Assembly: GCF_009914755.1 (NCBI RefSeq)
Contig: NC_060933.1
Source of the DNA: the human T2T-CHM13v2.0 reference genome, Homo sapiens
Length of the DNA: 64,000 nucleotides
Direction: 5' to 3' (one strand)
Shown here: positions 1 through 39,276 of the stretch, in pieces
How positions within the stretch are numbered: position 1 is the stretch's first letter
Layout: each line of letters starts with the position of its first letter
The notes under the pieces: model-generated
Seen by the model: the letters and a program-made list of their open reading frames with translations, nothing else
Database searches by the model: none
What the model was told of the DNA's origin: nothing
Translations under genes and position numbers: made by a program

Positions 1-99
1 ACAGGGCTGCGTGGCCAGCTGGGTGTGGGAGGTGCCAACACAGTAAGGGCTGGTCAAGGGGTGGCCGGGAGCGATACGGGGGGGTTGCTCAAGAAATCA

Positions 100-770
100 C
101 CGCTGGAACTGGGATCAAGTCATCCCACTTCTGGACGTATCGCCTAAGGACACGAAATCGGGATGTGGTGCAAATATGTGTCCTGCTGCGTTGGTTGTCG
201 GCACGCTACCTGTAACCAAGACGTGGAATCGACCTAAGTGCCCATCAGCAGATGACTAGAGAAGGACAAAGGAGTGGGGTTCGCAGAAGAAACACATCAG
301 GGAAAGGAAAGGAGAGCCGGTCATCTGGGACGTCATGCACGGACCCAAAAGTCATGGTGCCCAGTGAAATCAGCCAGGCCCATCCGACCCGTATTGCGTG
401 ATCTCCTTGGGATGTGGGATGGAAAGCGGTGAGGATCGCGAAAGTAGAGAGGAGAAAGGTGGTTGGCCGGGCCTGGGGCCGGGGTAGGGGCAGGGAAAAG
501 ATGCCCATGCGAGATGTGGGTCAAAGGGCACAAAGTTTCCGAGAGGCAGGTGGAGTGCTTCCTGGATATCCGTGGCAGGGCAACGTGAGTACGGTGGAGC
601 AGAATGTAAGGTTCTCGTGAATATACCCACGGGAGTAGAGCTGAAAATTCTCCCGACAGGGACAGGGGACGCATGTGGGGCGATAAGTGTGTGAATTCGG
701 CCGATTCTAGTGAATTCCCTAATGAAGACGTCACACACGGTAAGTGTGTATCATATTTATTGTCATTCAT
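100..770 (+). mobile_element. Ancient L1M(A)-type LINE-1 3' fragment, present in every monomer and strongly GC-enriched
   Basis: Blocks CATCCCACTTCTGG, TGGAATCGACCTAAGTGCCCATCAGCAGATGA, AGTGAAATCAGCCAGGC, AAGTAGAGAGGAGAAAGGTGGTT and GGTCAAAGGGCACAAAGTTTC are colinear with the L1MA ORF2-end/3'UTR. They also parallel the AT-rich L1MA at 51843-52480. Boundaries are approximate. Confidence 0.8.
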
Positions 771-1209
771 ACTTGAAGGCACCGGCGGGGGAAGGAAATA
801 ATTAAATCGCAAGACAAAACCTCCAAGAGAGATCACCTCGAAGAGAGTCTAACGTCCGTAGGAACGCTCTCGGGTTCACAAGGATTGACCGAACCCCAGG
901 ATACGTCGCTCTCCATCTGAGGCTTGCTCCAAATGGCCCTCCACTATTCCAGGCACGTGGGTGTCTCCCCTAACTCTCCCTGCTCTCCTGAGCCCATGCT
1001 GCCTATCACCCATCGGTGCAGGTCCTTTCTGAAGAGCTCGGGTGGATTCTCTCCATCCCACTTCCTTTCCCAAGAAAGAAGCCACCGTTCCAAGACACCC
1101 AATGGGACATTCCCCTTCCACCTCCTTCTCCAAAGTTGCCCAGGTGTTCATCACAGGTTAGGGAGAGAAGCCCCCAGGTTTCAGTTACAAGGCATAGGAC
1201 GCTGGCATG

Positions 1210-1210
<1 letters not shown>

Positions 1211-1252
<42 letters not shown>
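1211..1252. repeat. (AC)n microsatellite, one per monomer
   Basis: Counted repeat numbers for monomers 1-9: 21, 19, 22, 21, 22, 19, 21, 19, 21. Confidence 0.97.
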
Positions 1253-1254
<2 letters not shown>

Positions 1255-1698
1255 CTCGAAGAGGTAGCCACAAGGGTCATTAAACACTTGACGACTGTTT
1301 TCCAAAAACGTGGATGCAGTTCATCCACGCCAAAGCCAAGGGTGCAAAGCAAACACGGAATGGTGGAGAGATTCCAGAGGCTCACCAAACCCTCTCAGGA
1401 ATATTTTCCTGACCCTGGGGGCAGAGGTTGGAAACATTGAGGACATTTCTTGGGACACACGGAGAAGCTGACCGACCAGGCATTTTCCTTTCCACTGCAA
1501 ATGACCTATGGCGGGGGCATTTCACTTTCCCCTGCAAATCACCTATGGCGAGGTACCTCCCCAAGCCCCCACCCCCACTTCCGCGAATCGGCATGGCTCG
1601 GCCTCTATCCGGGTGTCACTCCAGGTAGGCTTCTCAACGCTCTCGGCTCAAAGAAGGACAATCACAGGTCCAAGCCCAAAGCCCACACCTCTTCCTTT

Positions 1699-2346
1699 TG
1701 TTATACCCACAGAAGTTAGAGAAAACGCCACACTTTGAGACAAATTAAGAGTCCTTTATTTAAGCCGGCGGCCAAAGAGATGGCTAACGCTCAAAATTCT
1801 CTGGGCCCCGAGGAAGGGGCTTGACTAACTTCTATACCTTGGTTTAGGAAGGGGAGGGGAACTCAAATGCGGTAATTCTACAGAAGTAAAAACATGCAGG
1901 AATCAAAAGAAGCAAATGGTTATAGAGAGATAAACAGTTTTAAAAGGCAAATGGTTACAAAAGGCAACGGTACCAGGTGCGGGGCTCTAAATCCTTCATG
2001 ACACTTAGATATAGGTGCTATGCTGGACACGAACTCAAGGCTTTATGTTGTTATCTCTTCGAGAAAAATCCTGGGAACTTCATGCACTGTTTGTGCCAGT
2101 ACCTTATCAGTTGATTGGGCTCCCTTGAAATGCTGAGTATCTGCTTACACAGGTCAACTCCTTGCGGAAGGGGGTTGGGTAAGGAGCCCTTCGTGTCTCG
2201 TAAATTAAGGGGTCGATTGGAGTTTGTCCAGCATTCCCAGCTACAGAGAGCCTTATTTACATGAGAAGCAAGGCTAGGTGATTAAAGAGACCGACAGGGA
2301 AGATTCAAAGTAGCGACTTAGAGTAAAAACAAGGTTAGGCATTTCA
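1699..2346 (-). mobile_element. ERV1-class solo LTR (648 bp), monomer 1
   Basis: TG...CA termini (minus strand TGAAATGCCTAACCTTGTTTTTACT...GGGTATAACA) flanked by a perfect 4-bp TSD CTTT (1695-1698 and 2347-2350). Minus-strand AATAAA at 1760-1755 near the 3' end. The 5' end resembles LTR6-like ERV1 LTRs; subfamily not assigned. Confidence 0.9.
1755..1760 (-). terminator. Candidate polyadenylation signal AATAAA (LTR-derived) for the predicted minus-strand gene; one per monomer
   Basis: Plus-strand TTTATT at 1755-1760 is the first canonical minus-strand AATAAA I found downstream of the stop codon at 2716. Confidence 0.45.
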
Positions 2347-2479
2347 CTTTCCCAGAGAACGCGCAAACATTCAATGGGAGAGAGGTCCCGAGTCGTCAAA
2401 GTCCCAGATGTGGTGAGGCCCCGGGAGGAAAAACCGTGTCTTCCTTAGGATGCCCGGAACAAGAGCTAGGCTTCCGGAG

Positions 2480-3780
2480 CTAGGCAGCCATCTATGTCCG
2501 TGAGCCGGCGGGAGGGAGACCGCCGGGAGGCGAAGTGGGGCGGGGCCATCCTTCTTTCTGCTCTGCTGCTGCCGGGGAGCTCCTGGCTGGCGTCCAAGCG
2601 GCAGGAGGCCGCCGTCCTGCAGGGCGCCGTAGAGTTTGCGGTGCAGAGTCGGGATCGCCTCTGGGGCAGAGGGTTCGAGCTTTTCCAAGGCGAGGGTGCT
2701 GGCTCCCGTGCGCACCTAAGGCCCCCCAGGAGCGGGCGCAAAGGGCGGCGGGCCCGCGGGCCAGGGCCCCGCAGCCAGCAGGCTGTCGAGCGTGGCCAGC
2801 GCCCAGTGCAGGGCGGCCCCGGCGTGCGCCAGCTGCCAGGTGAGCCAGGCGCGCTGCGAGGCGCTGGGCTGCGTGCCGCCGGCGGGCCCCGGGAGGAAGG
2901 CGCCCCCCGGGGCCCGAAGCTCGCCCAGGGCCACGTCCAGCCCGCCCAGGTGGTTGACGACTCGCGAGAGCGGGCACGGGAGGGAGACCCAGGCTTCTGG
3001 GGAGTGGCGTCGGCGGCGCTTTGGGGAGGTGGGTCGCTCCTCCCGGACGTCAACGCGGCGTTGCGGGCCGCTCGTCCTCCCTGGCGATCTAGGCCGGTGC
3101 TTTGGCTCCTCCAGGCGCCTCGGGCTGGGAACAGAACCTGCGCGGGAGACAGAGCGGGAGGTGTCAGAGGGACTGCGCGCAGCGCTAGGGGACCCATTTC
3201 CAAGGTCCCGAAGCCGCTCCCGACCCCGCCTCCCCATGCCCTCCATCCCCCACCCCTCCGCGGCTCGCCTCCGCGCCCCATCCTCTCGGCCCCTCCCTGC
3301 ATCCTGGGGACTCCGGTGCCCCGTCCGGGGTGCCCTCCCCTCCGCCCGTTCAAACTTGAAGCACATCTCATCTGGGGCCACCGGGGGCCCGGGTTCCTGG
3401 CGCACTGAGGGCTTCCTCGGCCCCCTCGGGGCCCCCCACTCCCCGCTCCCCTTCCCGGGGCCCTGCGCCCTCCTCCCCACCCCTCCAAGCTCCCAGCCCC
3501 TAAACCTGCCTCCTCTGCGCTCGTGGGGGCGTCGTGCTCTGCCGGACTCGGGCTTGTCGTGGCCTCGCTCTCCGGCTGGGGCTGGTCGTGGCTTGACCTT
3601 CCGCCCTCGGTTTCCGGTTTCTCTGCCGGGACTGCGAGGGGAGCCGTCGGGGCTTCTCCACCGTTTGTGCCTGGACGCAGAGGCCTCCCGGCTGTGCCCG
3701 CTGAAAGCTGCGGGGGAAGAGGAGGTCGACAGTGAGTGGGCCATGACCCGTCCGTAGACGGCTGCGGGAGGGTTGCAAGG
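2480..3780. other. CpG island / very GC-rich core of the monomer, covering predicted exons 2-3; repeated in each monomer
   Basis: Dense CpG dinucleotides and visibly very high GC content (not computed). Boundaries are approximate. Confidence 0.85.
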
Positions 3781-4217
3781 GCCAAGCTCCCAGAGTGACT
3801 TCAAGGCAGGAATGGCTCTGCTCCCAGGTGTCCCCCACCCCCTCCTCTTTCTCCAGCTGCCCAAGACCTCCAGGCCCCACTCCCCTGGTCCCTTCCTGTC
3901 TCCTGACTCTGGCTGTTCCCCAGCTGCCTGCCACCCTCCAGCAAACCCTCCTCCGCGGGCGCACCCAGAGGATGGCCCAGCTGGCGGAGCCACCCAGCAC
4001 ACAAAAAGTCTGCCTTTCTTTGACCTTAGGTTTCCCCACCACCTGCCGGATCAGGGCCCGTGGGGCGGGGGCCGCTGCCTTTGTCACCCCAGCTCTAACT
4101 CTCCTGCCTCCCTGGCCCCTGCCACCCCCTCCACACACCAATCCGCACAGACGAGACACTCGACCCTCACTCACCTCGTCCTCTCTCAGAGCCCTCCCGG
4201 GTCTTGCGTGTCTCCAT
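2716..4217 (-). CDS. Predicted 3-exon gene, copy 1 (coding exons 4217-4175, 3707-3510, 3137-2716): 220-aa Arg/Ser/Pro-rich, probably nuclear protein of unknown function
   Basis: Kozak AAGATGG at 4217. Intron 1: donor GAG|GTGAGT (4175/4174), branch CTCAC, acceptor CCTCCTCTTCCCCCGCAG| (3708/3707). Intron 2: GC donor GAG|GCAGGT (3510/3509), branch CTGAC, acceptor CTCTGTCTCCCGCGCAG| (3138/3137). TAG at 2718-2716. Both junctions are phase 1; 43+198+422=663 nt. Protein METRKTREGSERGRAFSGHSREASASRHKRWRSP...TSPKRRRRHSPEAWVSLPCPLSRVVNHLGGLDVALGELR...QRAWLTWQLAHAGAALHWALATLDSLLAAGPWPAGPPPFAPAPGGP. Confidence 0.6.
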
Positions 4218-4369
4218 CTTCCCCTGCTTTCCACAGGGAGGTCTGTCTTCTCCCGTCTCCTCAAAGGACAGCTTCCCCATCCAGGAAAGAGCTCTGTGTT
4301 CCCGGCGAGGAGGCTCTAACCTCTGGCAGCCTGAGCAGCGCAAGCCGGGCAATGGCCGGTTGGGCGCAG

Positions 4370-4475
4370 CCGGCGGGCTTTGATAGGGAGCCAGGACCCC
4401 CTGCTGGGAGTTCCCAGGAGGATTGGCTGCGGACACGCCCACAGTGGCAGGCTACCTTGATTAGGTTAGGCGGGT
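4370..4475 (-). promoter_or_regulatory. Candidate proximal promoter of the predicted gene: DUX4-type double-homeobox motif, CCAAT box, GC boxes and a TATA-like/TCF element; one per monomer
   Basis: Minus-strand TAACCTAATCA at 4468-4458 matches DUX4 consensus TAAYYYAATCA. AGCCAATC at 4428-4421. TATCAAAG (plus-strand CTTTGAT, 4378-4384). GGCGGG at 4372 and 4469. DUX motif copies start at 9900, 15330, 20758, 26188, 31608, 37056, 42480 and 47928. Confidence 0.55.
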
Positions 4476-4691
4476 TGGAGGGGTTCCGCTTTCTCCCTGG
4501 GTCCCTGCCGCTCTGTCTCCCGCAAGTGATGAGCAATTTTGCGGAGTGGCAGAACAGAGACAAAGGTAGCTGTGGGCTTCACGGTAATTTCAAAGGAAGT
4601 GCCCTACTTCGTTGCCCATTTCGAAGTCCTCTCTACCTCTGCGTTGGACGATTTCTCCACTTCCTGGTGTGCACCTGCGTGTGTGCGTGCC

Positions 4692-4730
4692 TGTGTGTGT
4701 GTGTGTGTGTGTGCGCGCGCGCGCGCGTGC
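4692..4730. repeat. Compound (TG)n(CG)n microsatellite, one per monomer
   Basis: (TG)11(CG)7 in monomer 1; both blocks vary in length between monomers. Confidence 0.95.
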
Positions 4731-6655
4731 TGGGGTGTGTGCATACTATGCCGAGAGTCGGGCAAATTTCGAGTGAAGGGAGACCGAGTCCCGCAGGTTC
4801 TCTTGCTCCTGCAGTCTGCGGAGGAAAAACTCCTTTCTGGCACGGCGGCAGGAATCCATCTACCGACGTTAGGAAAGGACAGGGTGTGCTTTCGTCCCAG
4901 CTTAGTTTTCTATGGAGAAACAGGCAGCAGAGGAGAGTGGGCCAGAGGGCCACATTTTGCCCACGACCAGCCAGGTTTGAGTTGGTTCCTCCTAGGCCTC
5001 ACGGTCTGATTTTCTCCTCCCCTTTGTGTACCCGACGGGTGTTGCTCTGAGCTCAGGACCATCCCGGCGGGCTGCGGATGGGATCATCGTGTGTGTATGG
5101 CCACAGCCCTCCGCCTCGCTCGCTCGGTGAGCACGTGAATCAAGGAAGGGGCACACGACTCTAGGCAGGACCCGGCGGGGTGTGGGGAGGAGAAACTCGG
5201 TAAGAGAAGAGAGGGAGAGGGAGACGTGCGAGGCGCAGGCTGTCCCAGGCGAGTCTGAGAAACGGCGTGCGCGGAGACGTCCGCCAGAAAGCAAGCAGGC
5301 GAAAGGAAATGGAACGTCCGCAGGGCCGGTGCCGTGGGATCCGGTCACGCCCTGACGGCTTTCGGGGACATCTCAGGCTCGCTGTCTCCGCCTTGGACCT
5401 GGCGCAGAGAGGAGTGAGGCCTGAGGACAGGGCTGCGTGGCCAGCTGGGTGTGGGAGGTGCCAACACAGTAAGGGCTGGTCAAGGGGTGGCCGGGAGCGA
5501 TACGGGGGGGTTGCTCAAGAAATCACCGCTGGAACTGGGATTCCAGTCCAGTGGGATACGTCCAGTCATCCCACTTCTGGACGTATCGCCTAAGGACACG
5601 AAATCGGGATGTGGTGCAAATATGTGTCCTGCTGCGTTGGTTGTCGGCACGCTGCCTGTAACCAAGACGTGGAATCGACCTAAGTGCCCATCAGCAGATG
5701 ACTAGAGAAGGACAAAGGAGTGGGGTTCGCAGAAGAAACACATCAGGGAAAGGAAAGGAGAGCCGGTCATCTGGGACGTCATGCATGGACCCAAAAGTCA
5801 TGGTGCCCAGTGAAATCAGCCAGGCCCATCCGACCCGTATTGCGTGATCTCCTTGGGATGTGGGATGGAAAGCGGTGAGGATCGCGAAAGTAGAGAGGAG
5901 AAAGGTGGTTGGCCGGGCCTGGGGCCGGGGTAGGGGCAGGGAAAAGATGCCCATGCGAGATGTGGGTCAAAGGGCAGAAAGTTTCCGAGAGGCAGGTGGA
6001 GTGCTTCCTGGATATCCGTGGCAGGGCAACGCGAGTACGGTGGAGCAGAATGTAAGGTTCTCGTGAATATACCCACGGGAGTAGAGCTGAAAATTCTCCC
6101 GACAGGGACAGGGGACGCATGTGGGGCGATAAGTGTGTGAATTCGGCCGATTCTAGTGAATTCCCTAATGAAGACGTCACACACGGTAAGTGTGTATCAT
6201 ATTTATTGTCATTCATACTTGAAGGCACCGGCGGGGGAAGGAAATAATTAAATCGCAAGACAAAACTTCCAAGAGAGATCACCTCGAAGAGAGTCTAACG
6301 TCCGTAGGAACGCTCTCGGGTTCACAAGGATTGACCGAACCCCAGGATACGTCGCTCTCCATCTGAGGCTTGCTCCAAATGGCCCTCCACTATTCCAGGC
6401 ACGTGGGTGTCTCCCCTAACTCTCCCTGCTCTCCTGAGCCCATGCTGCCTATCACCCATCGGTGCAGGTCCTTTCTGAAGAGCTCGGGTGGATTCTCTCC
6501 ATCCCACTTCCTTTCCCAAGAAAGAAGCCACCGTTCCAAGACACCCAATGGGACATTCCCCTTCCACCTCCTTCTCCAAAGTTGCCCAGGTGTTCATCAC
6601 AGGTTAGGGAGAGAAGCCCCCAGGTTTCAGTTACAAGGCATAGGACGCTGGCATG

Positions 6656-6696
<41 letters not shown>

Positions 6697-7140
6697 CTCG
6701 AAGAGGTAGCCACAAGGGTCATTAAACACTTGACGACTGTTTTCCAAAAACGTGGATGCAGTTCATCCACGCCAAAGCCAAGGGTGCAAAGCAAACACGG
6801 AATGGTGGAGAGATTCCAGAGGCTCACCAAACCCTCTCAGGAATATTTTCCTGACCCTGGGGGCAGAGGTTGGAAACATTGAGGACATTTCTTGGGACAC
6901 ACGGAGAAGCTGACCGACCAGGCATTTTCCTTTCCACTGCAAATGACCTATGGCGGGGGCATTTCACTTTCCCCTGCAAATCACCTATGGCGAGGTACCT
7001 CCCCAAGCCCCCACCCCCACTTCCGCGAATCGGCATGGCTCGGCCTCTATCCGGGTGTCACTCCAGGTAGGCTTCTCAACGCTCTCGGCTCAAAGAAGGA
7101 CAATCACAGGTCCAAGCCCAAAGCCCACACCTCTTCCTTT

Positions 7141-7788
7141 TGTTATACCCACAGAAGTTAGAGAAAACGCCACACTTTGAGACAAATTAAGAGTCCTTTA
7201 TTTAAGCCGGCGGCCAAAGAGATGGCTAACGCTCAAAATTCTCTGGGCCCCGAGGAAGGGGCTTGACTAACTTCTATACCTTGGTTTAGGAAGGGGAGGG
7301 GAACTCAAATGCGGTAATTCTACAGAAGTAAAAACATGCAGGAATCAAAAGAAGCAAATGGTTATAGAGAGATAAACAGTTTTAAAAGGCAAATGGTTAC
7401 AAAAGGCAACGGTACCAGGTGCGGGGCTCTAAATCCTTCATGACACTTAGATATAGGTGCTATGCTGGACACGAACTCAAGGCTTTATGTTGTTATCTCT
7501 TCGAGAAAAATCCTGGGAACTTCATGCACTGTTTGTGCCAGTATCTTATCAGTTGATTGGGCTCCCTTGAAATGCTGAGTATCTGCTTACACAGGTCAAC
7601 TCCTTGCGGAAGGGGGTTGGGTAAGGAGCCCTTCGTGTCTCGTAAATTAAGGGGTCGATTGGAGTTTGTCCAGCATTCCCAGCTACAGAGAGCCTTATTT
7701 ACATGAGAAGCAAGGCTAGGTGATTAAAGAGACCGACAGGGAAGATTCAAAGTAGCGACTTAGAGTAAAAACAAGGTTAGGCATTTCA
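7141..7788 (-). mobile_element. ERV1-class solo LTR, monomer 2
   Basis: Copy of 1699-2346 with CTTT TSD. Confidence 0.9.
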
Positions 7789-8157
7789 CTTTCCCAGAGA
7801 ACGCGCAAACATTCAATGGGAGAGAGGTCCCGAGTCGTCAAAGTCCCAGATGTGGCGAGCCCCCGGGAGGAAAAACCGTGTCTTCCTTAGGATGCCCGGA
7901 ACAAGAGCTAGGCTTCCGGAGCTAGGCAGCCATCTATGTCCGTGAGCCGGCGGGAGGGAGACCGCCGGGAGGCGAAGTGGGGCGGGGCCATCCTTCTTTC
8001 TGCTCTGCTGCTGCCGGGGAGCTCCTGGCTGGCGTCCAAGCGGCAGGAGGCCGCCGTCCTGCAGGGCGCCGTAGAGTTTGCGGTGCAGAGTCGGGATCGC
8101 CTCTGGGGCAGAGGGTTCGAGCTTTTCCAAGGCGAGGGTGCTGGCTCCCGTGCGCAC

Positions 8158-9659
8158 CTAAGGCCCCCCAGGAGCGGGCGCAAAGGGCGGCGGGCCCGCG
8201 GGCCAGGGCCCCGCAGCCAGCAGGCTGTCGAGCGTGGCCAGCGCCCAGTGCAGGGCGGCCCCGGCGTGCGCCAGCTGCCAGGTGAGCCAGGCGCGCTGCG
8301 AGGCGCTGGGCTGCGTGCCGCCGGCGGGCCCCGGGAGGAAGGCGCCCCCCGGGGCCCGAAGCTCGCCCAGGGCCACGTCCAGCCCGCCCAGGTGGTTGAC
8401 GACTCGCGAGAGCGGGCACGGGAGGGAGACCCAGGCTTCTGGGGAGTGGCGTCGGCGGCGCTTTGGGGAGGTGGGTCGCTCCTCCCGGACGTCAACGCGG
8501 CGTTGCGGGCCGCTCGTCCTCCCTGGCGATCTAGGCCGGTGCTTTGGCTCCTCCAGGCGCCTCGGGCTGGGAACAGAACCTGCGCGGGAGACAGAGCGGG
8601 AGGTGCCAGAGGGACTGCGCGCAGCGCTAGGGGACCCATTTCCAAGGTCCCGAAGCCGCTCCCGACCCCGCCTCCCCCTGCCCTCCATCCCCCACCCCTC
8701 CGCGGCTCGCCTCCGCGCCCCATCCTCTCGGCCCCTCCCTGCATCCTGGGGACTCCGGTGCCCCGTCCGGGGTGCCCTCCCCTCCGCCCGTTCAAACTTG
8801 AAGCACATCTCATCTGGGGCCACCGGGGGCCCGGGTTCCTGGCGCACTGAGGGCTTCCTCGGCCCCCTCGGGGCCCCCCACTCCCCGCTCCCCTTCCCGG
8901 GGCCCTGCGCCCTCCTCCCCACCCCTCCAAGCTCCCAGCCCCTAAACCTGCCTCCTCTGCGCTCGTGGGGGCGTCGTGCTCTGCCGGACTCGGGCTTGTC
9001 GTGGCCTCGCTCTCCGGCTGGGGCTGGTCGTGGCTTGACCTTCCGCCCTCGGTTTCCGGTTTCTCTGCCGGGACTGCGAGGGGAGCCGTCGGGGCTTCTC
9101 CACCGTTTGTGCCTGGACGCAGAGGCCTCCCGGCTGTGCCCGCTGGAAGCTGCGGGGGAAGAGGAGGTCGACAGTGAGTGGGCCATGACCCGTCCGTAGA
9201 CGGCTGCGGGAGGGTTGCAAGGGCCAAGCTCCCAGAGTGACTTCAAGGCAGGAATGGCTCTGCTCCCAGGTGTCCCCCACCCCCTCCTCTTTCTCCAGCT
9301 GCCCAAGACCTCCAGGCCCCACTCCCCTGGTCCCTTCCTGTCTCCTCACTCTGGCTGTTCCCCAGCTGCCTGGCACCCTCCAGCAAACCCTCCTCCGCGG
9401 GCGCACCCAGAGGATGGCCCAGCTGGCGGAGCCACCCAGCACACAAAAAGTCTGCCTTTCTTTGACCTTAGGTTTCCCCACCACCTGCCGGATCAGGGCC
9501 CGTGGGGCGGGGGCCGCTGCCTTTGTCACCCCAGCTCTAACTCTCCTGCCTCCCTGGCCCCTGCCACCCCCTCCACACACCAATCCGCACAGACGAGACA
9601 CTCGACCCTCACTCACCTCGTCCTCTCTCAGAGCCCTCCCGGTTCTTGCGGGTCTCCAT
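8158..9659 (-). CDS. Predicted 3-exon gene, copy 2 (intron-2 branch-point variant)
   Basis: Same signals at offset +5442; ORF intact; begins METRKNREG. Confidence 0.55.
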
Positions 9660-12079
9660 CTTCCCCTGCTTTCCACAGGGAGGTCTGTCTTCTCCCGTCT
9701 CCTCAAAGGACAGCTTCCCCATCCAGGAAAGAGCTCTGTGTTCCCGGCGAGGAGGCTCTACCCTCTGGCAGCCTGAGCAGCGCAAGCGGGGCAATGGCCG
9801 GTTGGGCGCAGCCGGCGGGCTTTGATAGGGAGCCAGGACCCCCTGCTGGGAGTTCCCAGGAGGATTGGCTGCGGACACGCCCACAGGGGCAGGCTACCTT
9901 GATTAGGTTAGGCGGGTTGGAGGGGTTCCGCTTTCTCCCTGGGTCCCTGCCGCTCTGTCTCCGGCAAGTGATGAGCAATTTTGCGGAGTGGCAGAACAGA
10001 GACAAAGGTAGCTGTGGGCTTCACGGTAATTTCAAAGGAAGTGCCCTACTTCGTTGCCCATTTCGAAGTCCTCTCTACCTCTGCGTTGGACGATTTCTCC
10101 ACTTCCTGGTGTGCACCTGCGTGTGTGCGTGCCTGTGTGTGTGTGTGTGTGTGCGCGCGCGCGCGCGCGCGTGCTGGGGTGTGTGCACACTATGCCGAGA
10201 GTCGGGCAAATTTCGAGTGAAGGGAGACCGAGTCCCGCAGGTTCTCTTGCTCCTGCAGTCTGCGGAGGAAAAACTCCTTTCTGGCACGGCGGCAGGAATC
10301 CATCTACCGACGTTAGGAAAGGACAGGGTGTGCTTTCGTCCCAGCTTAGTTTTCTATGGAGAAACAGGCAGCAGAGGAGAGTGGGCCAGAGGGCCACATT
10401 TTGCCCACGACCAGCCAGGTTTGAGTTGGTTCCTCCTAGGCCTCACGGTCTGATTTTCTCCTCCCCTTTGTGTACCCGACGGGTGTTGCTCTGAGCTCAG
10501 GACCATCCCGGCGGGCTGCGGATGGGATCATCGTGTGTGTATGGCCACAGCCCTCCGCCTCGCTCGCTCGGTGAGCACGTGAATCAAGGAAGGGGCACAC
10601 GACTCTAGGCAGGACCCGGCGGGGTGTGGGGAGGAGAAACTCGGTAAGAGAAGAGAGGGAGAGGGAGACGTGCGAGGCGCAGGCTGTCCCAGGCGAGTCT
10701 TAGAAACCGCGTGCGCGGAGACGTCCGCCAGAAAGCAAGCAGGCGAAAGGAAATGGAACATCCGCAGGGCCGGTGCCGTGGGATCCGGTCACGCCCTGAC
10801 GGCTTTCGGGGACATCTCAGGCTCGCTGTCTCCGCCTTGGACCTGGCGCAGAGAGGAGTGAGGCCTGAGGACAGGGCTGCGTGGCCAGCTGGGTGTGGGA
10901 GGTGCCAACACAGTAAGGGCTGGTCAAGGGGTGGCCGGGAGCGATACGGGGGGGTTGCTCAAGAAATCACCGCTGGAACTGGGATCAAGTCATCCCACTT
11001 CTGGACGTATCGCCTAAGGACACGAAATCGGGATGTGGTGCAAATATGTGTCCTGCTGCGTTGGTTGTCGGCACGCTACCTGTAACCAAGACGTGGAATC
11101 GACCTAAGTGCCCATCAGCAGATGACTAGAGAAGGACAAAGGAGTGGGGTTCGCAGAAGAAACACATCAGGGAAAGGAAAGGAGAGCCGGTCATCTGGGA
11201 CGTCATGCACGGACCCAAAAGTCATGGTGCCCAGTGAAATCAGCCAGGCCCATCCGACCCGTATTGCGTGATCTCCTTGGGATGTGGGATGGAAAGCGGT
11301 GAGGATCGCGAAAGTAGAGAGGAGAAAGGTGGTTGGCCGGGCCTGGGGCCGGGGTAGGGGCAGGGAAAAGATGCCCATGCGAGATGTGGGTCAAAGGGCA
11401 CAAAGTTTCCGAGAGGCAGGTGGAGTGCTTCCTGGATATCCGTGGCAGGGCAACGTGAGTACGGTGGAGCAGAATGTAAGGTTCTCGTGAATATACCCAC
11501 GGGAGTAGAGCTGAAAATTCTCCCGACAGGGACAGGGGACGCATGTGGGGCGATAAGTGTGTGAATTCGGCCGATTCTAGTGAATTCCCTAATGAAGACG
11601 TCACACACGGTAAGTGTGTATCATATTTATTGTCATTCATACTTGAAGGCACCGGCGGGGGAAGGAAATAATTAAATCGCAAGACAAAACCTCCAAGAGA
11701 GATCACCTCGAAGAGAGTCTAACGTCCGTAGGAACGCTCTCGGGTTCACAAGGATTGACCGAACCCCAGGATACGTCGCTCTCCATCTGAGGCTTGCTCC
11801 AAATGGCCCTCCACTATTCCAGGCACGTGGGTGTCTCCCCTAACTCTCCCTGCTCTCCTGAGCCCATGCTGCCTATCACCCATCGGTGCAGGTCCTTTCT
11901 GAAGAGCTCGGGTGGATTCTCTCCATCCCACTTCCTTTCCCAAGAAAGAAGCCACCGTTCCAAGACACCCAATGGGACATTCCCCTTCCACCTCCTTCTC
12001 CAAAGTTGCCCAGGTGTTCATCACAGGTTAGGGAGAGAAGCCCCCAGGTTTCAGTTACAAGGCATAGGACGCTGGCATG

Positions 12080-12126
<47 letters not shown>

Positions 12127-12570
12127 CTCGAAGAGGTAGCCACAAGGGTCATTAAACACTTGACGACTGTTTTCCAAAAACGTGGATGCAGTTCATCCAC
12201 GCCAAAGCCAAGGGTGCAAAGCAAACACGGAATGGTGGAGAGATTCCAGAGGCTCACCAAACCCTCTCAGGAATATTTTCCTGACCCTGGGGGCAGAGGT
12301 TGGAAACATTGAGGACATTTCTTGGGACACACGGAGAAGCTGACCGACCAGGCATTTTCCTTTCCACTGCAAATGACCTATGGCGGGGGCATTTCACTTT
12401 CTCCTGCAAATCACCTATGGCGAGGTACCTCCCCAAGCCCCCACCCCCACTTCCGCGAATCGGCATGGCTCGGCCTCTATCCGGGTGTCACTCCAGGTAG
12501 GCTTCTCAACGCTCTCGGCTCAAAGAAGGACAATCACAGGTCCAAGCCCAAAGCCCACACCTCTTCCTTT

Positions 12571-13218
12571 TGTTATACCCACAGAAGTTAGAGAAAACGC
12601 CACACTTTGAGACAAATTAAGAGTCCTTTATTTAAGCCGGCGGCCAAAGAGATGGCTAACGCTCAAAATTCTCTGGGCCCCGAGGAAGGGGCTTGACTAA
12701 CTTCTATACCTTGGTTTAGGAAGGGGAGGGGAACTCAAATGCGGTAATTCTACAGAAGTAAAAACATGCAGGAATCAAAAGAAGCAAATGGTTATAGAGA
12801 GATAAACAGTTTTAAAAGGCAAATGGTTACAAAAGGCAACGGTACCAGGTGCGGGGCTCTAAATCCTTCATGACACTTAGATATAGGTGCTATGCTGGAC
12901 ACGAACTCAAGGCTTTATGTTGTTATCTCTTCGAGAAAAATCCTGGGAACTTCATGCACTGTTTGTGCCAGTATCTTATCAGTTGATTGGGCTCCCTTGA
13001 AATGCTGAGTATCTGCTTACACAGGTCAACTCCTTGCGGAAGGGGGTTGGGTAAGGAGCCCTTCGTGTCTCGTAAATTAAGGGGTCGATTGGAGTTTGTC
13101 CAGCATTCCCAGCTACAGAGAGCCTTATTTACATGAGAAGCAAGGCTAGGTGATTAAAGAGACCGACAGGGAAGATTCAAAGTAGCGACTTAGAGTAAAA
13201 ACAAGGTTAGGCATTTCA
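12571..13218 (-). mobile_element. ERV1-class solo LTR, monomer 3
   Basis: Copy of 1699-2346. Confidence 0.9.
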
Positions 13219-13587
13219 CTTTCCCAGAGAACGCGCAAACATTCAATGGGAGAGAGGTCCCGAGTCGTCAAAGTCCCAGATGTGGCGAGCCCCCGGGAGG
13301 AAAAACCGTGTCTTCCTTAGGATGCCCGGAACAAGAGCTAGGCTTCCGGAGCTAGGCAGCCATCTATGTCCGTGAGCCGGCGGGAGGGAGACCGCCGGGA
13401 GGCGAAGTGGGGCGGGGCCATCCTTCTTTCTGCTCTGCTGCTGCCGGGGAGCTCCTGGCTGGCGTCCAAGCGGCAGGAGGCCGCCGTCCTGCAGGGCGCC
13501 GTAGAGTTTGCGGTGCAGAGTCGGGATCGCCTCTGGGGCAGAGGGTTCGAGCTTTTCCAAGGCGAGGGTGCTGGCTCCCGTGCGCAC

Positions 13588-15089
13588 CTAAGGCCCCCCA
13601 GGAGCGGGCGCAAAGGGCGGCGGGCCCGCGGGCCAGGGCCCCGCAGCCAGCAGGCTGTCGAGCGTGGCCAGCGCCCAGTGCAGGGCGGCCCCGGCGTGCG
13701 CCAGCTGCCAGGTGAGCCAGGCGCGCTGCGAGGCGCTGGGCTGCGTGCCGCCGGCGGGCCCCGGGAGGAAGGCGCCCCCCGGGGCCCGAAGCTCGCCCAG
13801 GGCCACGTCCAGCCCGCCCAGGTGGTTGACGACTCGCGAGAGCGGGCACGGGAGGGAGACCCAGGCTTCTGGGGAGTGGCGTCGGCGGCGCTTTGGGGAG
13901 GTGGGTCGCTCCTCCCGGACGTCAACGCGGCGTTGCGGGCCGCTCGTCCTCCCTGGCGATCTAGGCCGGTGCTTTGGCTCCTCCAGGCGCCTCGGGCTGG
14001 GAACAGAACCTGCGCGGGAGACAGAGCGGGAGGTGCCAGAGGGACTGCGCGCAGCGCTAGGGGACCCATTTCCAAGGTCCCGAAGCCGCTCCCGACCCCG
14101 CCTCCCCCTGCCCTCCATCCCCCACCCCTCCGCGGCTCGCCTCCGCGCCCCATCCTCTCGGCCCCTCCCTGCATCCTGGGGACTCCGGTGCCCCGTCCGG
14201 GGTGCCCTCCCCTCCGCCCGTTCAAACTTGAAGCACATCTCATCTGGGGCCACCGGGGGCCCGGGTTCCTGGCGCACTGAGGGCTTCCTCGGCCCCCTCG
14301 GGGCCCCCCACTCCCCGCTCCCCTTCCCGGGGCCCTGCGCCCTCCTCCCCACCCCTCCAAGCTCCCAGCCCCTAAACCTGCCTCCTCTGCGCTCGTGGGG
14401 GCGTCGTGCTCTGCCGGACTCGGGCTTGTCGTGGCCTCGCTCTCCGGCTGGGGCTGGTCGTGGCTTGACCTTCCGCCCTCGGTTTCCGGTTTCTCTGCCG
14501 GGACTGCGAGGGGAGCCGTCGGGGCTTCTCCACCGTTTGTGCCTGGACGCAGAGGCCTCCCGGCTGTGCCCGCTGGAAGCTGCGGGGGAAGAGGAGGTCG
14601 ACAGTGAGTGGGCCATGACCCGTCCGTAGACGGCTGCGGGAGGGTTGCAAGGGCCAAGCTCCCAGAGTGACTTCAAGGCAGGAATGGCTCTGCTCCCAGG
14701 TGTCCCCCACCCCCTCCTCTTTCTCCAGCTGCCCAAGACCTCCAGGCCCCACTCCCCTGGTCCCTTCCTGTCTCCTGACTCTGGCTGTTCCCCAGCTGCC
14801 TGGCACCCTCCAGCAAACCCTCCTCCGCGGGCGCACCCAGAGGATGGCCCAGCTGGCGGAGCCACCCAGCACACAAAAAGTCTGCCTTTCTTTGACCTTA
14901 GGTTTCCCCACCACCTGCCGGATCAGGGCCCGTGGGGCGGGGGCCGCTGCCTTTGTCACCCCAGCTCTAACTCTCCTGCCTCCCTGGCCCCTGCCACCCC
15001 CTCCACACACCAATCCGCACAGACGAGACACTCGACCCTCACTCACCTCGTCCTCTCTCAGAGCCCTCCCGGTTCTTGCGGGTCTCCAT
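13588..15089 (-). CDS. Predicted 3-exon gene, copy 3 (intron-2 branch-point variant)
   Basis: Same signals at offset +10872; ORF intact. Confidence 0.55.
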
Positions 15090-17509
15090 CTTCCCCTGCT
15101 TTCCACAGGGAGGTCTGTCTTCTCCCGTCTCCTCAAAGGACAGCTTCCCCATCCAGGAAAGAGCTCTGTGTTCCCGGCGAGGAGGCTCTACCCTCTGGCA
15201 GCCTGAGCAGCGCAAGCGGGGCAATGGCCGGTTGGGCGCAGCCGGCGGGCTTTGATAGGGAGCCAGGACCCCCTGCTGGGAGTTCCCAGGAGGATTGGCT
15301 GCGGACACGCCCACAGGGGCAGGCTACCTTGATTAGGTTAGGCGGGTTGGAGGGGTTCCGCTTTCTCCCTGGGTCCCTGCCGCTCTGTCTCCGGCAAGTG
15401 ATGAGCAATTTTGCGGAGTGGCAGAACAGAGACAAAGGTAGCTGTGGGCTTCACGGTAATTTCAAAGGAAGTGCCCTACTTCGTTGCCCATTTCGAAGTC
15501 CTCTCTACCTCTGCGTTGGACGATTTCTCCACTTCCTGGTGTGCACCTGCGTGTGTGCGTGCCTGTGTGTGTGTGTGTGTGTGCGCGCGCGCGCGCGCGC
15601 GTGCTGGGGTGTGTGCACACTATGCCGAGAGTCGGGCAAATTTCGAGTGAAGGGAGACCGAGTCCCGCAGGTTCTCTTGCTCCTGCAGTCTGCGGAGGAA
15701 AAACTCCTTTCTGGCACGGCGGCAGGAATCCATCTACCGACGTTAGGAAAGGACAGGGTGTGCTTTCGTCCCAGCTTAGTTTTCTATGGAGAAACAGGCA
15801 GCAGAGGAGAGTGGGCCAGAGGGCCACATTTTGCCCACGACCAGCCAGGTTTGAGTTGGTTCCTCCTAGGCCTCACGGTCTGATTTTCTCCTCCCCTTTG
15901 TGTACCCGACGGGTGTTGCTCTGAGCTCAGGACCATCCCGGCGGGCTGCGGATGGGATCATCGTGTGTGTATGGCCACAGCCCTCCGCCTCGCTCGCTCG
16001 GTGAGCACGTGAATCAAGGAAGGGGCACACGACTCTAGGCAGGACCCGGCGGGGTGTGGGGAGGAGAAACTCGGTAAGAGAAGAGAGGGAGAGGGAGACG
16101 TGCGAGGCGCAGGCTGTCCCAGGCGAGTCTTAGAAACCGCGTGCGCGGAGACGTCCGCCAGAAAGCAAGCAGGCGAAAGGAAATGGAACATCCGCAGGGC
16201 CGGTGCCGTGGGATCCGGTCACGCCCTGACGGCTTTCGGGGACATCTCAGGCTCGCTGTCTCCGCCTTGGACCTGGCGCAGAGAGGAGTGAGGCCTGAGG
16301 ACAGGGCTGCGTGGCCAGCTGGGTGTGGGAGGTGCCAACACAGTAAGGGCTGGTCAAGGGGTGGCCGGGAGCGATACGGGGGGGTTGCTCAAGAAATCAC
16401 CGCTGGAACTGGGATCAAGTCATCCCACTTCTGGACGTATCGCCTAAGGACACGAAATCGGGATGTGGTGCAAATATGTGTCCTGCTGCGTTGGTTGTCG
16501 GCACGCTACCTGTAACCAAGACGTGGAATCGACCTAAGTGCCCATCAGCAGATGACTAGAGAAGGACAAAGGAGTGGGGTTCGCAGAAGAAACACATCAG
16601 GGAAAGGAAAGGAGAGCCGGTCATCTGGGACGTCATGCACGGACCCAAAAGTCATGGTGCCCAGTGAAATCAGCCAGGCCCATCCGACCCGTATTGCGTG
16701 ATCTCCTTGGGATGTGGGATGGAAAGCGGTGAGGATCGCGAAAGTAGAGAGGAGAAAGGTGGTTGGCCGGGCCTGGGGCCGGGGTAGGGGCAGGGAAAAG
16801 ATGCCCATGCGAGATGTGGGTCAAAGGGCACAAAGTTTCCGAGAGGCAGGTGGAGTGCTTCCTGGATATCCGTGGCAGGGCAACGTGAGTACGGTGGAGC
16901 AGAATGTAAGGTTCTCGTGAATATACCCACGGGAGTAGAGCTGAAAATTCTCCCGACAGGGACAGGGGACGCATGTGGGGCGATAAGTGTGTGAATTCGG
17001 CCGATTCTAGTGAATTCCCTAATGAAGACGTCACACACGGTAAGTGTGTATCATATTTATTGTCATTCATACTTGAAGGCACCGGCGGGGGAAGGAAATA
17101 ATTAAATCGCAAGACAAAACCTCCAAGAGAGATCACCTCGAAGAGAGTCTAACGTCCGTAGGAACGCTCTCGGGTTCACAAGGATTGACCGAACCCCAGG
17201 ATACGTCGCTCTCCATCTGAGGCTTGCTCCAAATGGCCCTCCACTATTCCAGGCACGTGGGTGTCTCCCCTAACTCTCCCTGCTCTCCTGAGCCCATGCT
17301 GCCTATCACCCATCGGTGCAGGTCCTTTCTGAAGAGCTCGGGTGGATTCTCTCCATCCCACTTCCTTTCCCAAGAAAGAAGCCACCGTTCCAAGACACCC
17401 AATGGGACATTCCCCTTCCACCTCCTTCTCCAAAGTTGCCCAGGTGTTCATCACAGGTTAGGGAGAGAAGCCCCCAGGTTTCAGTTACAAGGCATAGGAC
17501 GCTGGCATG

Positions 17510-17554
<45 letters not shown>

Positions 17555-17998
17555 CTCGAAGAGGTAGCCACAAGGGTCATTAAACACTTGACGACTGTTT
17601 TCCAAAAACGTGGATGCAGTTCATCCACGCCAAAGCCAAGGGTGCAAAGCAAACACGGAATGGTGGAGAGATTCCAGAGGCTCACCAAACCCTCTCAGGA
17701 ATATTTTCCTGACCCTGGGGGCAGAGGTTGGAAACATTGAGGACATTTCTTGGGACACACGGAGAAGCTGACCGACCAGGCATTTTCCTTTCCACTGCAA
17801 ATGACCTATGGCGGGGGCATTTCACTTTCTCCTGCAAATCACCTATGGCGAGGTACCTCCCCAAGCCCCCACCCCCACTTCCGCGAATCGGCATGGCTCG
17901 GCCTCTATCCGGGTGTCACTCCAGGTAGGCTTCTCAACGCTCTCGGCTCAAAGAAGGACAATCACAGGTCCAAGCCCAAAGCCCACACCTCTTCCTTT

Positions 17999-18646
17999 TG
18001 TTATACCCACAGAAGTTAGAGAAAACGCCACACTTTGAGACAAATTAAGAGTCCTTTATTTAAGCCGGCGGCCAAAGAGATGGCTAACGCTCAAAATTCT
18101 CTGGGCCCCGAGGAAGGGGCTTGACTAACTTCTATACCTTGGTTTAGGAAGGGGAGGGGAACTCAAATGCGGTAATTCTACAGAAGTAAAAACATGCAGG
18201 AATCAAAAGAAGCAAATGGTTATAGAGAGATAAACAGTTTTAAAAGGCAAATGGTTACAAAAGGCAACGGTACCAGGTGCGGGGCTCTAAATCCTTCATG
18301 ACACTTAGATATAGGTGCTATGCTGGACACGAACTCAAGGCTTTATGTTGTTATCTCTTCGAGAAAAATCCTGGGAACTTCATGCACTGTTTGTGCCAGT
18401 ATCTTATCAGTTGATTGGGCTCCCTTGAAATGCTGAGTATCTGCTTACACAGGTCAACTCCTTGCGGAAGGGGGTTGGGTAAGGAGCCCTTCGTGTCTCG
18501 TAAATTAAGGGGTCGATTGGAGTTTGTCCAGCATTCCCAGCTACAGAGAGCCTTATTTACATGAGAAGCAAGGCTAGGTGATTAAAGAGACCAACAGGGA
18601 AGATTCAAAGTAGCGACTTAGAGTAAAAACAAGGTTAGGCATTTCA
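17999..18646 (-). mobile_element. ERV1-class solo LTR, monomer 4
   Basis: Copy of 1699-2346. Confidence 0.9.

Positions 18647-22937: not shown

Positions 22938-22984
<47 letters not shown>

Positions 22985-28363: not shown

Positions 28364-28404
<41 letters not shown>

Positions 28405-31842: not shown

Positions 31843-31873
<31 letters not shown>

Positions 31874-33807: not shown

Positions 33808-33852
<45 letters not shown>

Positions 33853-37290: not shown

Positions 37291-37321
<31 letters not shown>

Positions 37322-39235: not shown

Positions 39236-39276
<41 letters not shown>

What the first reader, a model, noticed from the sequence alone, without database searches (positions are those of the whole stretch)
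4458..4468. Perfect DUX4-type motif in the predicted promoter of every copy: a possible zygotic-genome-activation gene array
Seen in sequence: TAACCTAATCA (minus strand) lies ~240 bp upstream of the ATG, followed by a CCAAT box (4426-4422) and a TATA-like TATCAAAG (~4385-4378). It is an AT-rich 11-mer retained in a GC-rich monomer, outside any transposon I recognise, and invariant in all nine copies. Established knowledge: DUX4 binds TAAYYYAATCA and activates cleavage-stage genes that are often clustered and multicopy (ZSCAN4, PRAMEF, MBD3L, TRIM43). Inference: a macrosatellite-encoded factor (DUX4 from D4Z4) may switch on this second macrosatellite-encoded gene, with output scaling with copy number, and it could be mis-expressed in FSHD muscle or DUX4-positive tumours.
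Basis: partly seen in the sequence, partly recalled or inferred. Interest (0 to 1): 0.85.

Follow-up and report, generated by a model that had tools for sequence, protein, structure and literature searches.

The report
DUX4 site in ZAV macrosatellite units
Each 5.4 kb unit of the known ZAV macrosatellite next to ZFP37 carries one exact DUX4 binding site, and a published supplementary table shows DUX4 bound and switching on transcription there in muscle cells, though a protein-coding embryonic gene is not supported.

Summary
TAACCTAATCA (minus strand) occurs once per unit, 9 times in the window and 11 times in the CHM13 array. The array is the known ZAV/MSat10 macrosatellite at 9q32.

Invariance among copies says nothing about selection. 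Units are 99.7% identical, and 88.8% of all 11-base windows are invariant.

Table S1 of Young et al. 2013 lists DUX4 ChIP-seq peaks in DUX4-transduced myoblasts (hg19). Two peaks have their best motifs 27,231 bp apart, which is 5 ZAV periods:
- height 206, log2 fold change +7.07, FDR 6.4e-6
- height 218, log2 fold change +5.02, FDR 0.029

Four collinear distances map them to the first and last ZAV motif copies. Inner copies could not be scored because only uniquely mapping reads were kept.

I found no paper that states this link.

These parts are not supported:
- a protein-coding gene
- cleavage-stage expression (uninformative)
- output scaling with copy number

The closest precedent is the TAF11-Like macrosatellite, whose genes are top DUX4 targets.

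Verdict: a real, probably undescribed DUX4-responsive macrosatellite. It is a new member of a known kind and moderately interesting.

The parts
1..49676 (-). ZAV / MSat10 macrosatellite array: about 5.43 kb units. It runs off the left end of the window. In CHM13 the whole array spans window coordinates -9622 to 49676 and holds 11 motif copies.
   Evidence: Self-BLAST of one unit. Identified with ZAV (Tremblay 2010) and MSat10 (Brahmachary 2014) by unit size, 60% GC, position next to ZFP37 and the FAM225 inverted repeat.
4458..4468 (-). DUX4 consensus site TAACCTAATCA, copy 1 in the window
   Evidence: equals the DUX4 ChIP-seq consensus
9900..9910 (-). DUX4 consensus site, copy 2
15330..15340 (-). 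DUX4 consensus site, copy 3
20758..20768 (-). DUX4 consensus site, copy 4
26188..26198 (-). DUX4 consensus site, copy 5
31608..31618 (-). DUX4 consensus site, copy 6
37056..37066 (-). DUX4 consensus site, copy 7
42480..42490 (-). DUX4 consensus site, copy 8
47928..47938 (-). DUX4 consensus site, copy 9, the last in the array. It corresponds to the hg19 ChIP-seq peak chr9:115851121-115851520 (height 218, log2FC 5.02, FDR 0.029).
   Evidence: The distance to the next peak motif is 12,410 bp in hg19 and 12,411 bp in CHM13.
4422..4426 (-). CCAAT pentamer 32 bp downstream of the motif; a possible NF-Y box, unverified
   Evidence: CCAAT occurs 3 times per unit on this strand
4378..4385 (-).
   Evidence: the unit has no TATAWA
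4175..4280 (-). Possible first exon: ATG at 4280 and an in-frame ATG at 4217, ending at a consensus donor GAG|GTGAGT (exon end 4175). The unspliced ORFs are 37 and 16 aa.
   Evidence: sequence only, no transcript evidence seen
2469..3668 (.). Large CpG island (GC 0.69-0.77, CpG o/e 0.62-0.92), downstream of the motif on the minus strand. It is presumably the 1.4 kb CGI to which Tremblay's EST and RT-PCR assay map.
5069..5468 (.). Part of the smaller CpG island (GC 0.64-0.67, CpG o/e 0.79-0.90), upstream of the motif on the minus strand
1699..2346 (.). Dispersed repeat of about 650 bp, 86-91% identical to copies on many chromosomes. It is presumably the LTR reported in the unit. An AATAAA on the minus strand at 1760 could end a minus-strand transcript.
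60339..60349 (-). Independent DUX4 site TAATCTAATCA in the distal flank. It corresponds to the hg19 peak chr9:115863530-115863959 (height 153, MLT1E2, not induced: log2FC 1.31, FDR 0.94).

Best explanation
The array is the known ZAV (MSat10) macrosatellite beside ZFP37. Each unit carries one exact DUX4 consensus site in non-transposon sequence between its two CpG islands. When DUX4 is present it binds this site and turns on transcription within about 1 kb. This is shown for DUX4-transduced myoblasts.

Inferred: the product is a unit-contained, probably non-coding RNA on the minus strand. It would start roughly 100 bp downstream of the site, run through the large CpG island where an EST lies, and could end at the AATAAA at the edge of the LTR.

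Also inferred: DUX4 accounts for part of the array's testis expression, and the array would be co-activated wherever DUX4 is on (cleavage embryo, FSHD muscle, DUX4-positive tumours).

The site most likely arose once and was multiplied with the unit. Its identity across copies reflects array homogenisation, not demonstrated selection.
For: 1. The motif is exact and occurs once per unit: 9 of 9 units in the window and 11 of 11 in the CHM13 array. No second site at 1 mismatch or fewer exists in any unit (13 window matches, 9 in the array and 4 in the flank).
2. TAACCTAATCA is the MEME consensus of the top 1,000 DUX4 ChIP-seq peaks in human myoblasts (Eidahl 2016, passage).
3. Young 2013 Table S1 lists exactly two peaks between chr9:115,793,714 and 115,863,530, each with 1 motif labelled 'Unique':
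- chr9:115823798-115824215, height 206, log2FC 7.07, FDR 6.4e-6
- chr9:115851121-115851520, height 218, log2FC 5.02, FDR 0.029
4. The mapping to ZAV is checked by geometry:
- The two motifs are 27,231 bp apart, which is 5 x 5,446 bp.
- The upstream neighbouring peak predicts window position -36,997, and a DUX4-like site lies at -37,002.
- The downstream neighbour is 12,410 bp away in hg19 and 12,411 bp in CHM13.
- The next one predicts 88,021, and a site lies at 87,984.
5. Activation is rare among bound sites. About 1% of bound regions (738 transcripts among 63,795 sites) and about 0.8% of one-motif peaks are activated. In the first 128 rows of the table, 6 of 128 peaks reach height 206 and 0 of 128 have FDR below 0.1.
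6. ZAV RNA is highest in testis and fetal brain. Young et al. describe testis as the normal site of DUX4 expression.
7. Precedent: TAF11L genes of the TAF11-Like macrosatellite are top DUX4 targets.
Against: - All binding and induction evidence comes from one over-expression experiment in myoblasts. DUX4 binds 63,795 sites there, so occupancy of a perfect motif is expected and proves no physiological role.
- Only 2 of the 6 hg19 copies were scored. The inner copies are unmappable with unique reads.
- The strand, start site and structure of the induced RNA are unknown.
- ZFP37, FAM225A/B, SLC31A2 and ZNF883 are absent from the Eidahl 2016 supplement, which includes the DUX4 RNA-seq gene lists. 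That file was cut when read.
- The Töhönen 2015 embryo supplement had 0 hits for the first- and last-unit coordinates or for ZFP37.
- In somatic cells the array is H3K9me3/H4K20me3-marked and is more methylated the larger it is. This may limit access and argues against simple scaling with copy number.
- Motif conservation in other primates could not be tested.
Confidence: 0.62

Rival explanations
1. Bystander site. The 11-mer arose by chance in the progenitor unit and was copied by array expansion and homogenisation. DUX4 binds it when over-expressed, but this has no consequence in embryo, germline or disease.
For: - The genome holds 25,274 perfect TAAYYYAATCA matches, against 15,122 for the reversed-pattern control.
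- Another bound but non-induced site lies 12 kb away, at 60339.
- 88.8% of 11-mers are invariant among units, so nothing indicates selection.
- I found no embryo or FSHD evidence.
Against: - The locus is among the roughly 1% of bound regions that are transcriptionally activated, at FDR 6.4e-6.
- Peak heights 206 and 218 fall in about the top 5% of a 128-row sample.
- The array is expressed in testis, where DUX4 is expressed.
Confidence: 0.27
2. Each unit encodes a protein-coding cleavage-stage gene whose promoter is the DUX4 site, with output proportional to copy number.
For: - There is a plausible first exon with an ATG and a consensus donor GAG|GTGAGT.
- Long open frames lie in the CpG island.
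- Other DUX4 targets are multicopy coding arrays such as TAF11L and TRIM43.
Against: - The unspliced ORF is 16-37 aa.
- Three overlapping ORFs of 300 aa or more lie on both strands of a 70-77% GC stretch. That pattern is expected from a scarcity of stop codons.
- 0 of 4 long ORFs match Pfam.
- The 342 aa ORF has 11 of 11 genome matches inside the array and none elsewhere.
- RefSeq annotates no gene, and Tremblay et al. list no ORF for ZAV.
- Methylation rises with copy number.
Confidence: 0.04
3. The array acts as a DUX4-responsive upstream promoter or enhancer of ZFP37. ZFP37 lies on the same strand, with its start about 5.1 kb downstream of the first motif copy.
For: - Orientation and distance fit (and the hub annotation).
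- ZAV copy number and methylation correlate with ZFP37 promoter methylation and inversely with ZFP37 expression.
- Tremblay et al. proposed that the array regulates ZFP37.
Against: - ZFP37 occurs 0 times in all 7 readable supplementary files of Young 2013, including the table of 238 DUX4-activated alternative promoters.
- It occurs 0 times in the Eidahl 2016 supplement.
Confidence: 0.07

Closest known systems
TAF11-Like macrosatellite (5p15.1), genes TAF11L2-14
   Same: Both are among the four arrays characterised in Tremblay 2010, and both are most strongly expressed in testis, with fetal brain among the other tissues. TAF11L11 and TAF11L12 are among the top 10 DUX4 target genes in FSHD-model myotubes, and TAF11L genes belong to the DUX4/KLF18 programme. 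Like ZAV, it is a copy-number-variable macrosatellite switched on by DUX4.
   Different: TAF11-Like units carry a clear protein-coding ORF. ZAV units have none that I could support. ZAV has no annotated gene, so gene-level DUX4 studies cannot see it.
DUX4-bound repeats that initiate transcripts (MaLR/ERVL LTRs, HSATII; Young et al. 2013)
   Same: DUX4 binds a double-homeobox motif in repeated DNA and initiates otherwise silent transcripts that are also seen in testis. For the tandemly repeated HSATII, 23% of bound repeats show activation.
   Different: The ZAV motif lies in sequence labelled 'Unique', not in a retroelement or a classical satellite. There is one motif per 5.4 kb unit, not clustered motifs.
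D4Z4 (the DUX4-encoding macrosatellite)
   Same: Both are GC-rich, CpG-island-bearing, copy-number-variable macrosatellites with copy-number-dependent heterochromatin. ZAV appeared more hypomethylated in FSHD2 individuals (SMCHD1 mutation carriers), though controls varied widely.
   Different: D4Z4 encodes the factor. ZAV would be its target. Contraction of ZAV has no known disease link.

Membership tests
Direct DUX4 target locus | Sequence match to the DUX4 double-homeodomain motif | tested here: met
Exact TAACCTAATCA in 11 of 11 units. It is identical to the ChIP-seq consensus of Eidahl 2016.
Direct DUX4 target locus | DUX4 occupancy in chromatin (ChIP) | tested here: met
   Published table: peaks of height 206 and 218 with their best motifs at the first and last ZAV copies of hg19. 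That is 2 of 6 copies. The other 4 cannot be assessed with unique reads. It is a single over-expression dataset.
Direct DUX4 target locus | DUX4-dependent transcriptional induction | tested here: met
   log2FC 7.07 (FDR 6.4e-6) and 5.02 (FDR 0.029) for the peak plus or minus 1 kb, DUX4 versus control myoblasts.
Direct DUX4 target locus | Induction depends on the motif (mutation or reporter) | not testable with these tools
   Needs a reporter assay.
Direct DUX4 target locus | Activation by endogenous DUX4 (FSHD muscle, testis, embryo) | not tested
   Testis expression of ZAV is published, but its dependence on DUX4 is not. No per-locus FSHD data were available to me.
Cleavage-stage (ZGA) multicopy gene array, such as ZSCAN4, PRAMEF, TRIM43, TAF11L | Transcribed at the 4- to 8-cell stage | tested here: inconclusive
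   0 hits for the first- and last-unit coordinates or ZFP37 in the 6 supplementary files of Töhönen 2015. A high-identity repeat with no gene name would probably be missed.
Cleavage-stage (ZGA) multicopy gene array, such as ZSCAN4, PRAMEF, TRIM43, TAF11L | Each unit encodes a protein | tested here: not met
   Unspliced ORFs are 16 and 37 aa. 0 of 4 long ORFs match Pfam. There is no paralogue outside the array, no RefSeq gene, and no ORF in Tremblay 2010. A spliced small ORF is not excluded.
Cleavage-stage (ZGA) multicopy gene array, such as ZSCAN4, PRAMEF, TRIM43, TAF11L | Tandem multicopy organisation | tested here: met
   About 10.9 units of 5.43 kb at 99.7% identity.
ZAV / MSat10 macrosatellite | Unit of 5.3-5.4 kb, 60% GC, two CpG islands, LTR and microsatellites, about 2 kb distal to ZFP37 and proximal to the FAM225 inverted repeat | tested here: met
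   Unit is 5,442 bp at 59.9% GC. Two CpG-rich blocks. A 650 bp dispersed repeat. CA/GC microsatellite. The array edge is at -9622 and the ZFP37 start at -11518 (hub annotation). Matches.

The most novel reading that the evidence does not exclude
ZAV is a second macrosatellite wired into the D4Z4/DUX4 circuit. DUX4 fires a non-coding (or micro-ORF) transcript from every unit in the germline and cleavage embryo. This burst of repeat transcription seeds the copy-number-dependent H3K9me3/DNA-methylation state that later tunes the neighbouring KRAB zinc-finger gene ZFP37. In FSHD, especially SMCHD1-mutant FSHD2 where ZAV may already be hypomethylated, the array is re-activated, with output depending on an individual's 3-31 units per allele. 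That would make it a polymorphic modifier or biomarker that gene-level analyses cannot see.
Probability: 0.12. Interest if true: 0.8.

Novelty: new member of a known kind. Interest (0 to 1): 0.55.

Why it matters
ZAV/MSat10 has been described only as a polymorphic, heterochromatic, testis-expressed array with no known regulator or product. A direct link to DUX4 would give it a regulator and a plausible reason for its testis expression.

It would also add a copy-number-variable, unannotated locus to the DUX4 programme. That programme is studied in FSHD, early embryos and DUX4-positive cancers.

The supporting numbers already sit in a 2013 supplementary table. They could not be recognised at the time, because only the two edge copies were mappable and the locus has no gene name. 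With T2T assemblies the question can be tested directly by re-mapping existing data.

It is not a conceptual surprise. DUX4 binds tens of thousands of sites and is already known to activate multicopy arrays and satellites.

Tried and rejected
- Tandem Repeats Finder found nothing, because its longest period is 500. I used self-BLAST instead.
- Invariance as evidence of selection is rejected: 88.8% of 11-mers are invariant.
- The older edge fragments of the array do not cover the motif, so they give no older comparison. These are the 89% piece at -9622..-8525 and the 95.7% partial unit at 47939-49676.
- A coding reading is rejected as unsupported: Pfam 0 of 4, no paralogues, short unspliced ORF.
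- The motif is not inside a transposon. The unit's LTR-like repeat lies 2.1-2.8 kb away.
- A collapsed-repeat ChIP artefact is considered unlikely. Both scorable peaks are about 400 bp wide and contain the single motif of a 5.4 kb unit, and RNA is induced.
- Literature searches for an explicit DUX4-ZAV link found none:
  - ZAV + macrosatellite gave 33 papers, of which I saw 20 listed. The 'ZAV' hits in the two I opened for this were author names.
  - DUX4 + ZFP37 gave 3 papers.
  - DUX4 + 9q32 gave 6 papers.
  - DUX4 + T2T-CHM13 + macrosatellite gave 30 papers, 15 listed. In the one I opened for this (PMC12776069), a term search for ZAV, ZFP37, 9q32, MSat10 and chr9 gave 0 hits.
  - ZFP37 + zygotic genome activation gave 2 irrelevant papers.
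- The Eidahl 2016 supplement holds no full peak list and no neighbouring gene names.
- The Töhönen 2015 supplement gave 0 hits.
- A Markov simulation timed out. I replaced it with an analytic expectation.
- The store of earlier findings was not open.
- Primate genomes are not held here, so motif conservation was not tested. Only probe-based copy numbers were seen, relative to the human mean: chimpanzee 4.7x, bonobo 3.7x, gorilla 2.7x and 3.4x, gibbon 0.70x, macaque 0.27x.

Full report
WHAT IS THERE

On the minus strand, TAACCTAATCA lies at window 4468..4458. It is followed by CCAAT (4426..4422), TATCAAAG (4385..4378) and an ATG at 4217..4215.

The 11-mer occurs 9 times in the window, always on the minus strand and 5420-5448 bp apart.

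The window is T2T-CHM13 chr9:125240001-125304000, and the assembly can be searched. The array continues to the left of the window. In CHM13 it spans window coordinates -9622 to 49676 and carries 11 motif copies, the two extra ones at -6414 and -970.

No second DUX4-like site exists within a unit, even at one mismatch. Of 13 window matches, 9 are these copies and 4 lie in the distal flank.

THE ARRAY IS KNOWN

It is the ZAV (ZFP37-associated VNTR) macrosatellite of Tremblay et al. 2010 (PMC3018141; passages and the whole ZAV section read). That paper reports:
- 5.3 kb units at 60% GC, with two CpG islands of 1.4 kb and about 0.7 kb
- an LTR, LINE fragments and microsatellites in each unit
- 3-31 units per allele
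- RNA detected in testis and fetal brain, and no clear ORF

It is also MSat10 of Brahmachary et al. 2014 (PMC4063668; passages). That paper reports:
- DNA methylation rising with copy number (R2 = 0.76)
- H3K9me3 and H4K20me3 over the array

Mason et al. 2017 (PMC5461771; one passage) noted that ZAV appears more hypomethylated in FSHD2 individuals, who carry SMCHD1 mutations. Controls varied widely.

My own measurements agree with these descriptions:
- The unit is 5,442 bp at 59.9% GC.
- CpG-rich blocks lie at about 3668-2469 and 5468-5069.
- A dispersed repeat of about 650 bp lies at about 1699-2346, 86-91% identical to copies on many chromosomes.

The motif sits between the two CpG islands, in sequence with no other copy in the genome at the sensitivity. 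In that search, 11 hits were the array itself and the remaining 30 hits all fell within query positions 59-139, the unit's CA/GC microsatellite.

IS IT MORE THAN CHANCE?

The nine copies are one event, because the units are tandem duplicates. Two estimates of the expected number of perfect TAAYYYAATCA matches per unit are:
- 0.0036, from a first-order Markov model of the unit
- 0.044, from the genome-wide density of 25,274 perfect matches in CHM13 (the reversed-pattern control gave 15,122)

A site is therefore uncommon in such GC-rich DNA. But the motif was chosen after reading, and the same 64 kb window holds an unrelated perfect match at 60339.

The argument from invariance fails. Across the 10 full units, 5,363 of 5,450 alignment columns and 4,833 of 5,440 (88.8%) 11-column windows are invariant. 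Mean pairwise identity is 99.68%.

The two older array-edge fragments do not cover the motif.

The promoter trimmings are weak evidence. CCAAT occurs 3 times per unit on that strand, and the unit has no canonical TATA.

DIRECT EXPERIMENTAL EVIDENCE FOUND IN PRINT

Eidahl et al. 2016 (PMC5409219; passage) report that the MEME consensus of their top 1,000 DUX4 ChIP-seq peaks in human myoblasts is exactly 5'-TAACCTAATCA-3'.

Young et al. 2013 (PMC3836709) give all 63,795 DUX4 ChIP-seq peaks in hg19 in Table S1, from DUX4-transduced myoblasts. I read part 1 of the table and searched it. Between chr9:115,793,714 and 115,863,530 there are exactly two peaks:

| Peak (hg19, chr9) | Height | Best motif | Label | log2FC | FDR |
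|---|---|---|---|---|---|
| 115823798-115824215 | 206 | 115824105-115824121 | Unique | 7.07 | 6.4e-6 |
| 115851121-115851520 | 218 | 115851336-115851352 | Unique | 5.02 | 0.029 |

The expression columns refer to the peak plus 1 kb on each side, DUX4 versus control.

I have no hg19 sequence, so I checked the mapping by geometry:
- The two motifs are 27,231 bp apart, which is 5 x 5,446.2 bp. That is the ZAV period, so they are the first and last of six copies.
- The upstream neighbouring peak motif (115793522) predicts window position -36,997. A DUX4-like site (one mismatch) lies at -37,002.
- The downstream neighbour (115863746, labelled MLT1E2) is 12,410 bp from the last ZAV peak. In CHM13 the site at 60339 is 12,411 bp from the copy at 47928.
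- The next peak motif (115891428) predicts 88,021. A perfect site lies at 87,984.

The hg18 coordinates of MSat10 and ZFP37 in Brahmachary's supplement fit the same layout.

The four inner copies are missing for a stated reason. ChIP reads with mapq of 15 or less were discarded, and the authors call the peak analysis 'relatively blind' to highly identical repeats. RNA-seq reads were allowed up to 20 locations.

HOW UNUSUAL IS THAT RESULT?

According to the paper, about 1% of bound regions are significantly activated (738 transcripts), and about 0.8% of peaks with a single motif. In the first 128 rows of Table S1, 6 of 128 peaks reach a height of 206 and 0 of 128 have FDR below 0.1. The neighbouring site at 60339 is bound (height 153) but not induced (log2FC 1.31, FDR 0.94).

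ZAV is therefore not merely one of tens of thousands of bound sites. It belongs to the small activated class.

WHAT IS NOT SUPPORTED

A protein-coding gene:
- The ATG at 4217 opens a 16 aa unspliced ORF, or 37 aa from the in-frame ATG at 4280. It ends just past a good donor, GAG|GTGAGT, with the exon ending at 4175.
- The long ORFs in the 70-77% GC island overlap each other on both strands.
- 0 of 4 long ORFs match Pfam.
- The 342 aa ORF matches only the array itself, 11 of 11 hits.
- RefSeq annotates no gene here, and Tremblay lists none.

Cleavage-stage expression: the supplement of Töhönen et al. 2015 (searched only) has 0 hits for the relevant coordinates or for ZFP37. A high-identity, unnamed repeat would be easy to miss, so this is uninformative.

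ZFP37 as the regulated gene: ZFP37 appears in none of the 7 readable supplementary files of Young 2013. One of those files lists the DUX4-activated alternative promoters. It is also absent from the Eidahl supplement (that file was cut when read).

Scaling with copy number: in somatic cells methylation rises with copy number, so a simple proportional output is doubtful.

Conservation: this could not be tested. Probe counts suggest the array is multicopy in apes. Relative to the human mean they are chimpanzee 4.7x, bonobo 3.7x, gorilla 2.7x and 3.4x, gibbon 0.70x and macaque 0.27x. That says nothing about the motif.

MOST LIKELY MECHANISM

Shown:
- There is one consensus site per unit.
- DUX4 occupancy and strong DUX4-dependent RNA are seen at the two scorable copies in myoblasts.

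Inferred:
- All units behave alike.
- Transcription runs on the minus strand from roughly 100 bp downstream of the site, through the possible first exon and the large CpG island where Tremblay's EST lies. It could end at the AATAAA at 1760, at the edge of the LTR-like repeat. That would give a unit-contained, probably non-coding RNA.
- DUX4 contributes to the array's testis signal, and the array is co-activated wherever DUX4 is expressed.

The main rival is that this is a neutral bystander site with no role outside over-expression.

COMPARISON AND NOVELTY

The closest precedent is the TAF11-Like macrosatellite, described in the same 2010 paper. Its TAF11L genes are among the top DUX4 targets (PMC12776069 and PMC13224869; passages). 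HSATII and MaLR/ERVL repeats are the other DUX4-activated repeats. ZAV differs in having no supported ORF, no gene name, and a motif in non-transposon sequence.

I found no paper that states a DUX4-ZAV link. The searches were:
- 33 papers, 20 listed
- 3 papers
- 6 papers
- 30 papers, 15 listed
- 2 papers

The evidence sits unremarked in a supplementary table. I therefore rate this a new member of a known kind. It is moderately interesting, and directly testable by re-mapping public data to a T2T unit.

Noticed in passing
window 60339-60349 (minus strand): An independent perfect DUX4 motif, TAATCTAATCA, lies in the distal flank. It corresponds to a published DUX4 peak (height 153) labelled MLT1E2 that is not induced (log2FC 1.31, FDR 0.94).
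   Followed up: yes
window about 1699-2346 in the first full unit, and the same place in every unit: A dispersed repeat of about 650 bp has copies at 86-91% identity on many chromosomes. It is presumably the LTR mentioned by Tremblay et al. An AATAAA on the minus strand at 1760 sits about 60 bp from its edge and could serve as a poly(A) signal for a minus-strand unit transcript.
   Followed up: partly
left of the window: window coordinates -9622 to -6404 (loci L009, L010): The proximal edge of the array starts with an 89%-identical fragment (unit positions 1566-2669). It joins directly to unit positions 3323-5442 at 99% identity, so about 650 bp of the unit is missing there. ZFP37's annotated start lies 1.9 kb further left.
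   Followed up: partly
window 47939-49676: The distal edge of the array is a partial unit (unit positions 1-1742) at only 95.7% identity. It is older, or has escaped homogenisation. It begins right after the last motif copy and so carries no motif of its own.
   Followed up: partly
window 35286-35873 and 43159-43660: The two RefSeq 'enhancer' features fall on the large and the small CpG island of their units, at unit-equivalent positions of about 2688-3275 and 5137-5638. Neither covers the DUX4 motif.
   Followed up: partly
window 4680-4740 (minus strand) in each unit: A (GC)n(CA)n microsatellite lies about 220 bp upstream of the motif. It produced all the non-array hits when the promoter-like region was searched against the genome.
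   Followed up: no
whole array: The Nanostring probe counts in Brahmachary 2014 Table S10 suggest more copies in African great apes than in humans (chimpanzee 4.7x, bonobo 3.7x, gorilla 2.7-3.4x the human mean). Yet human units are 99.7% identical, which implies strong concerted evolution.
   Followed up: partly
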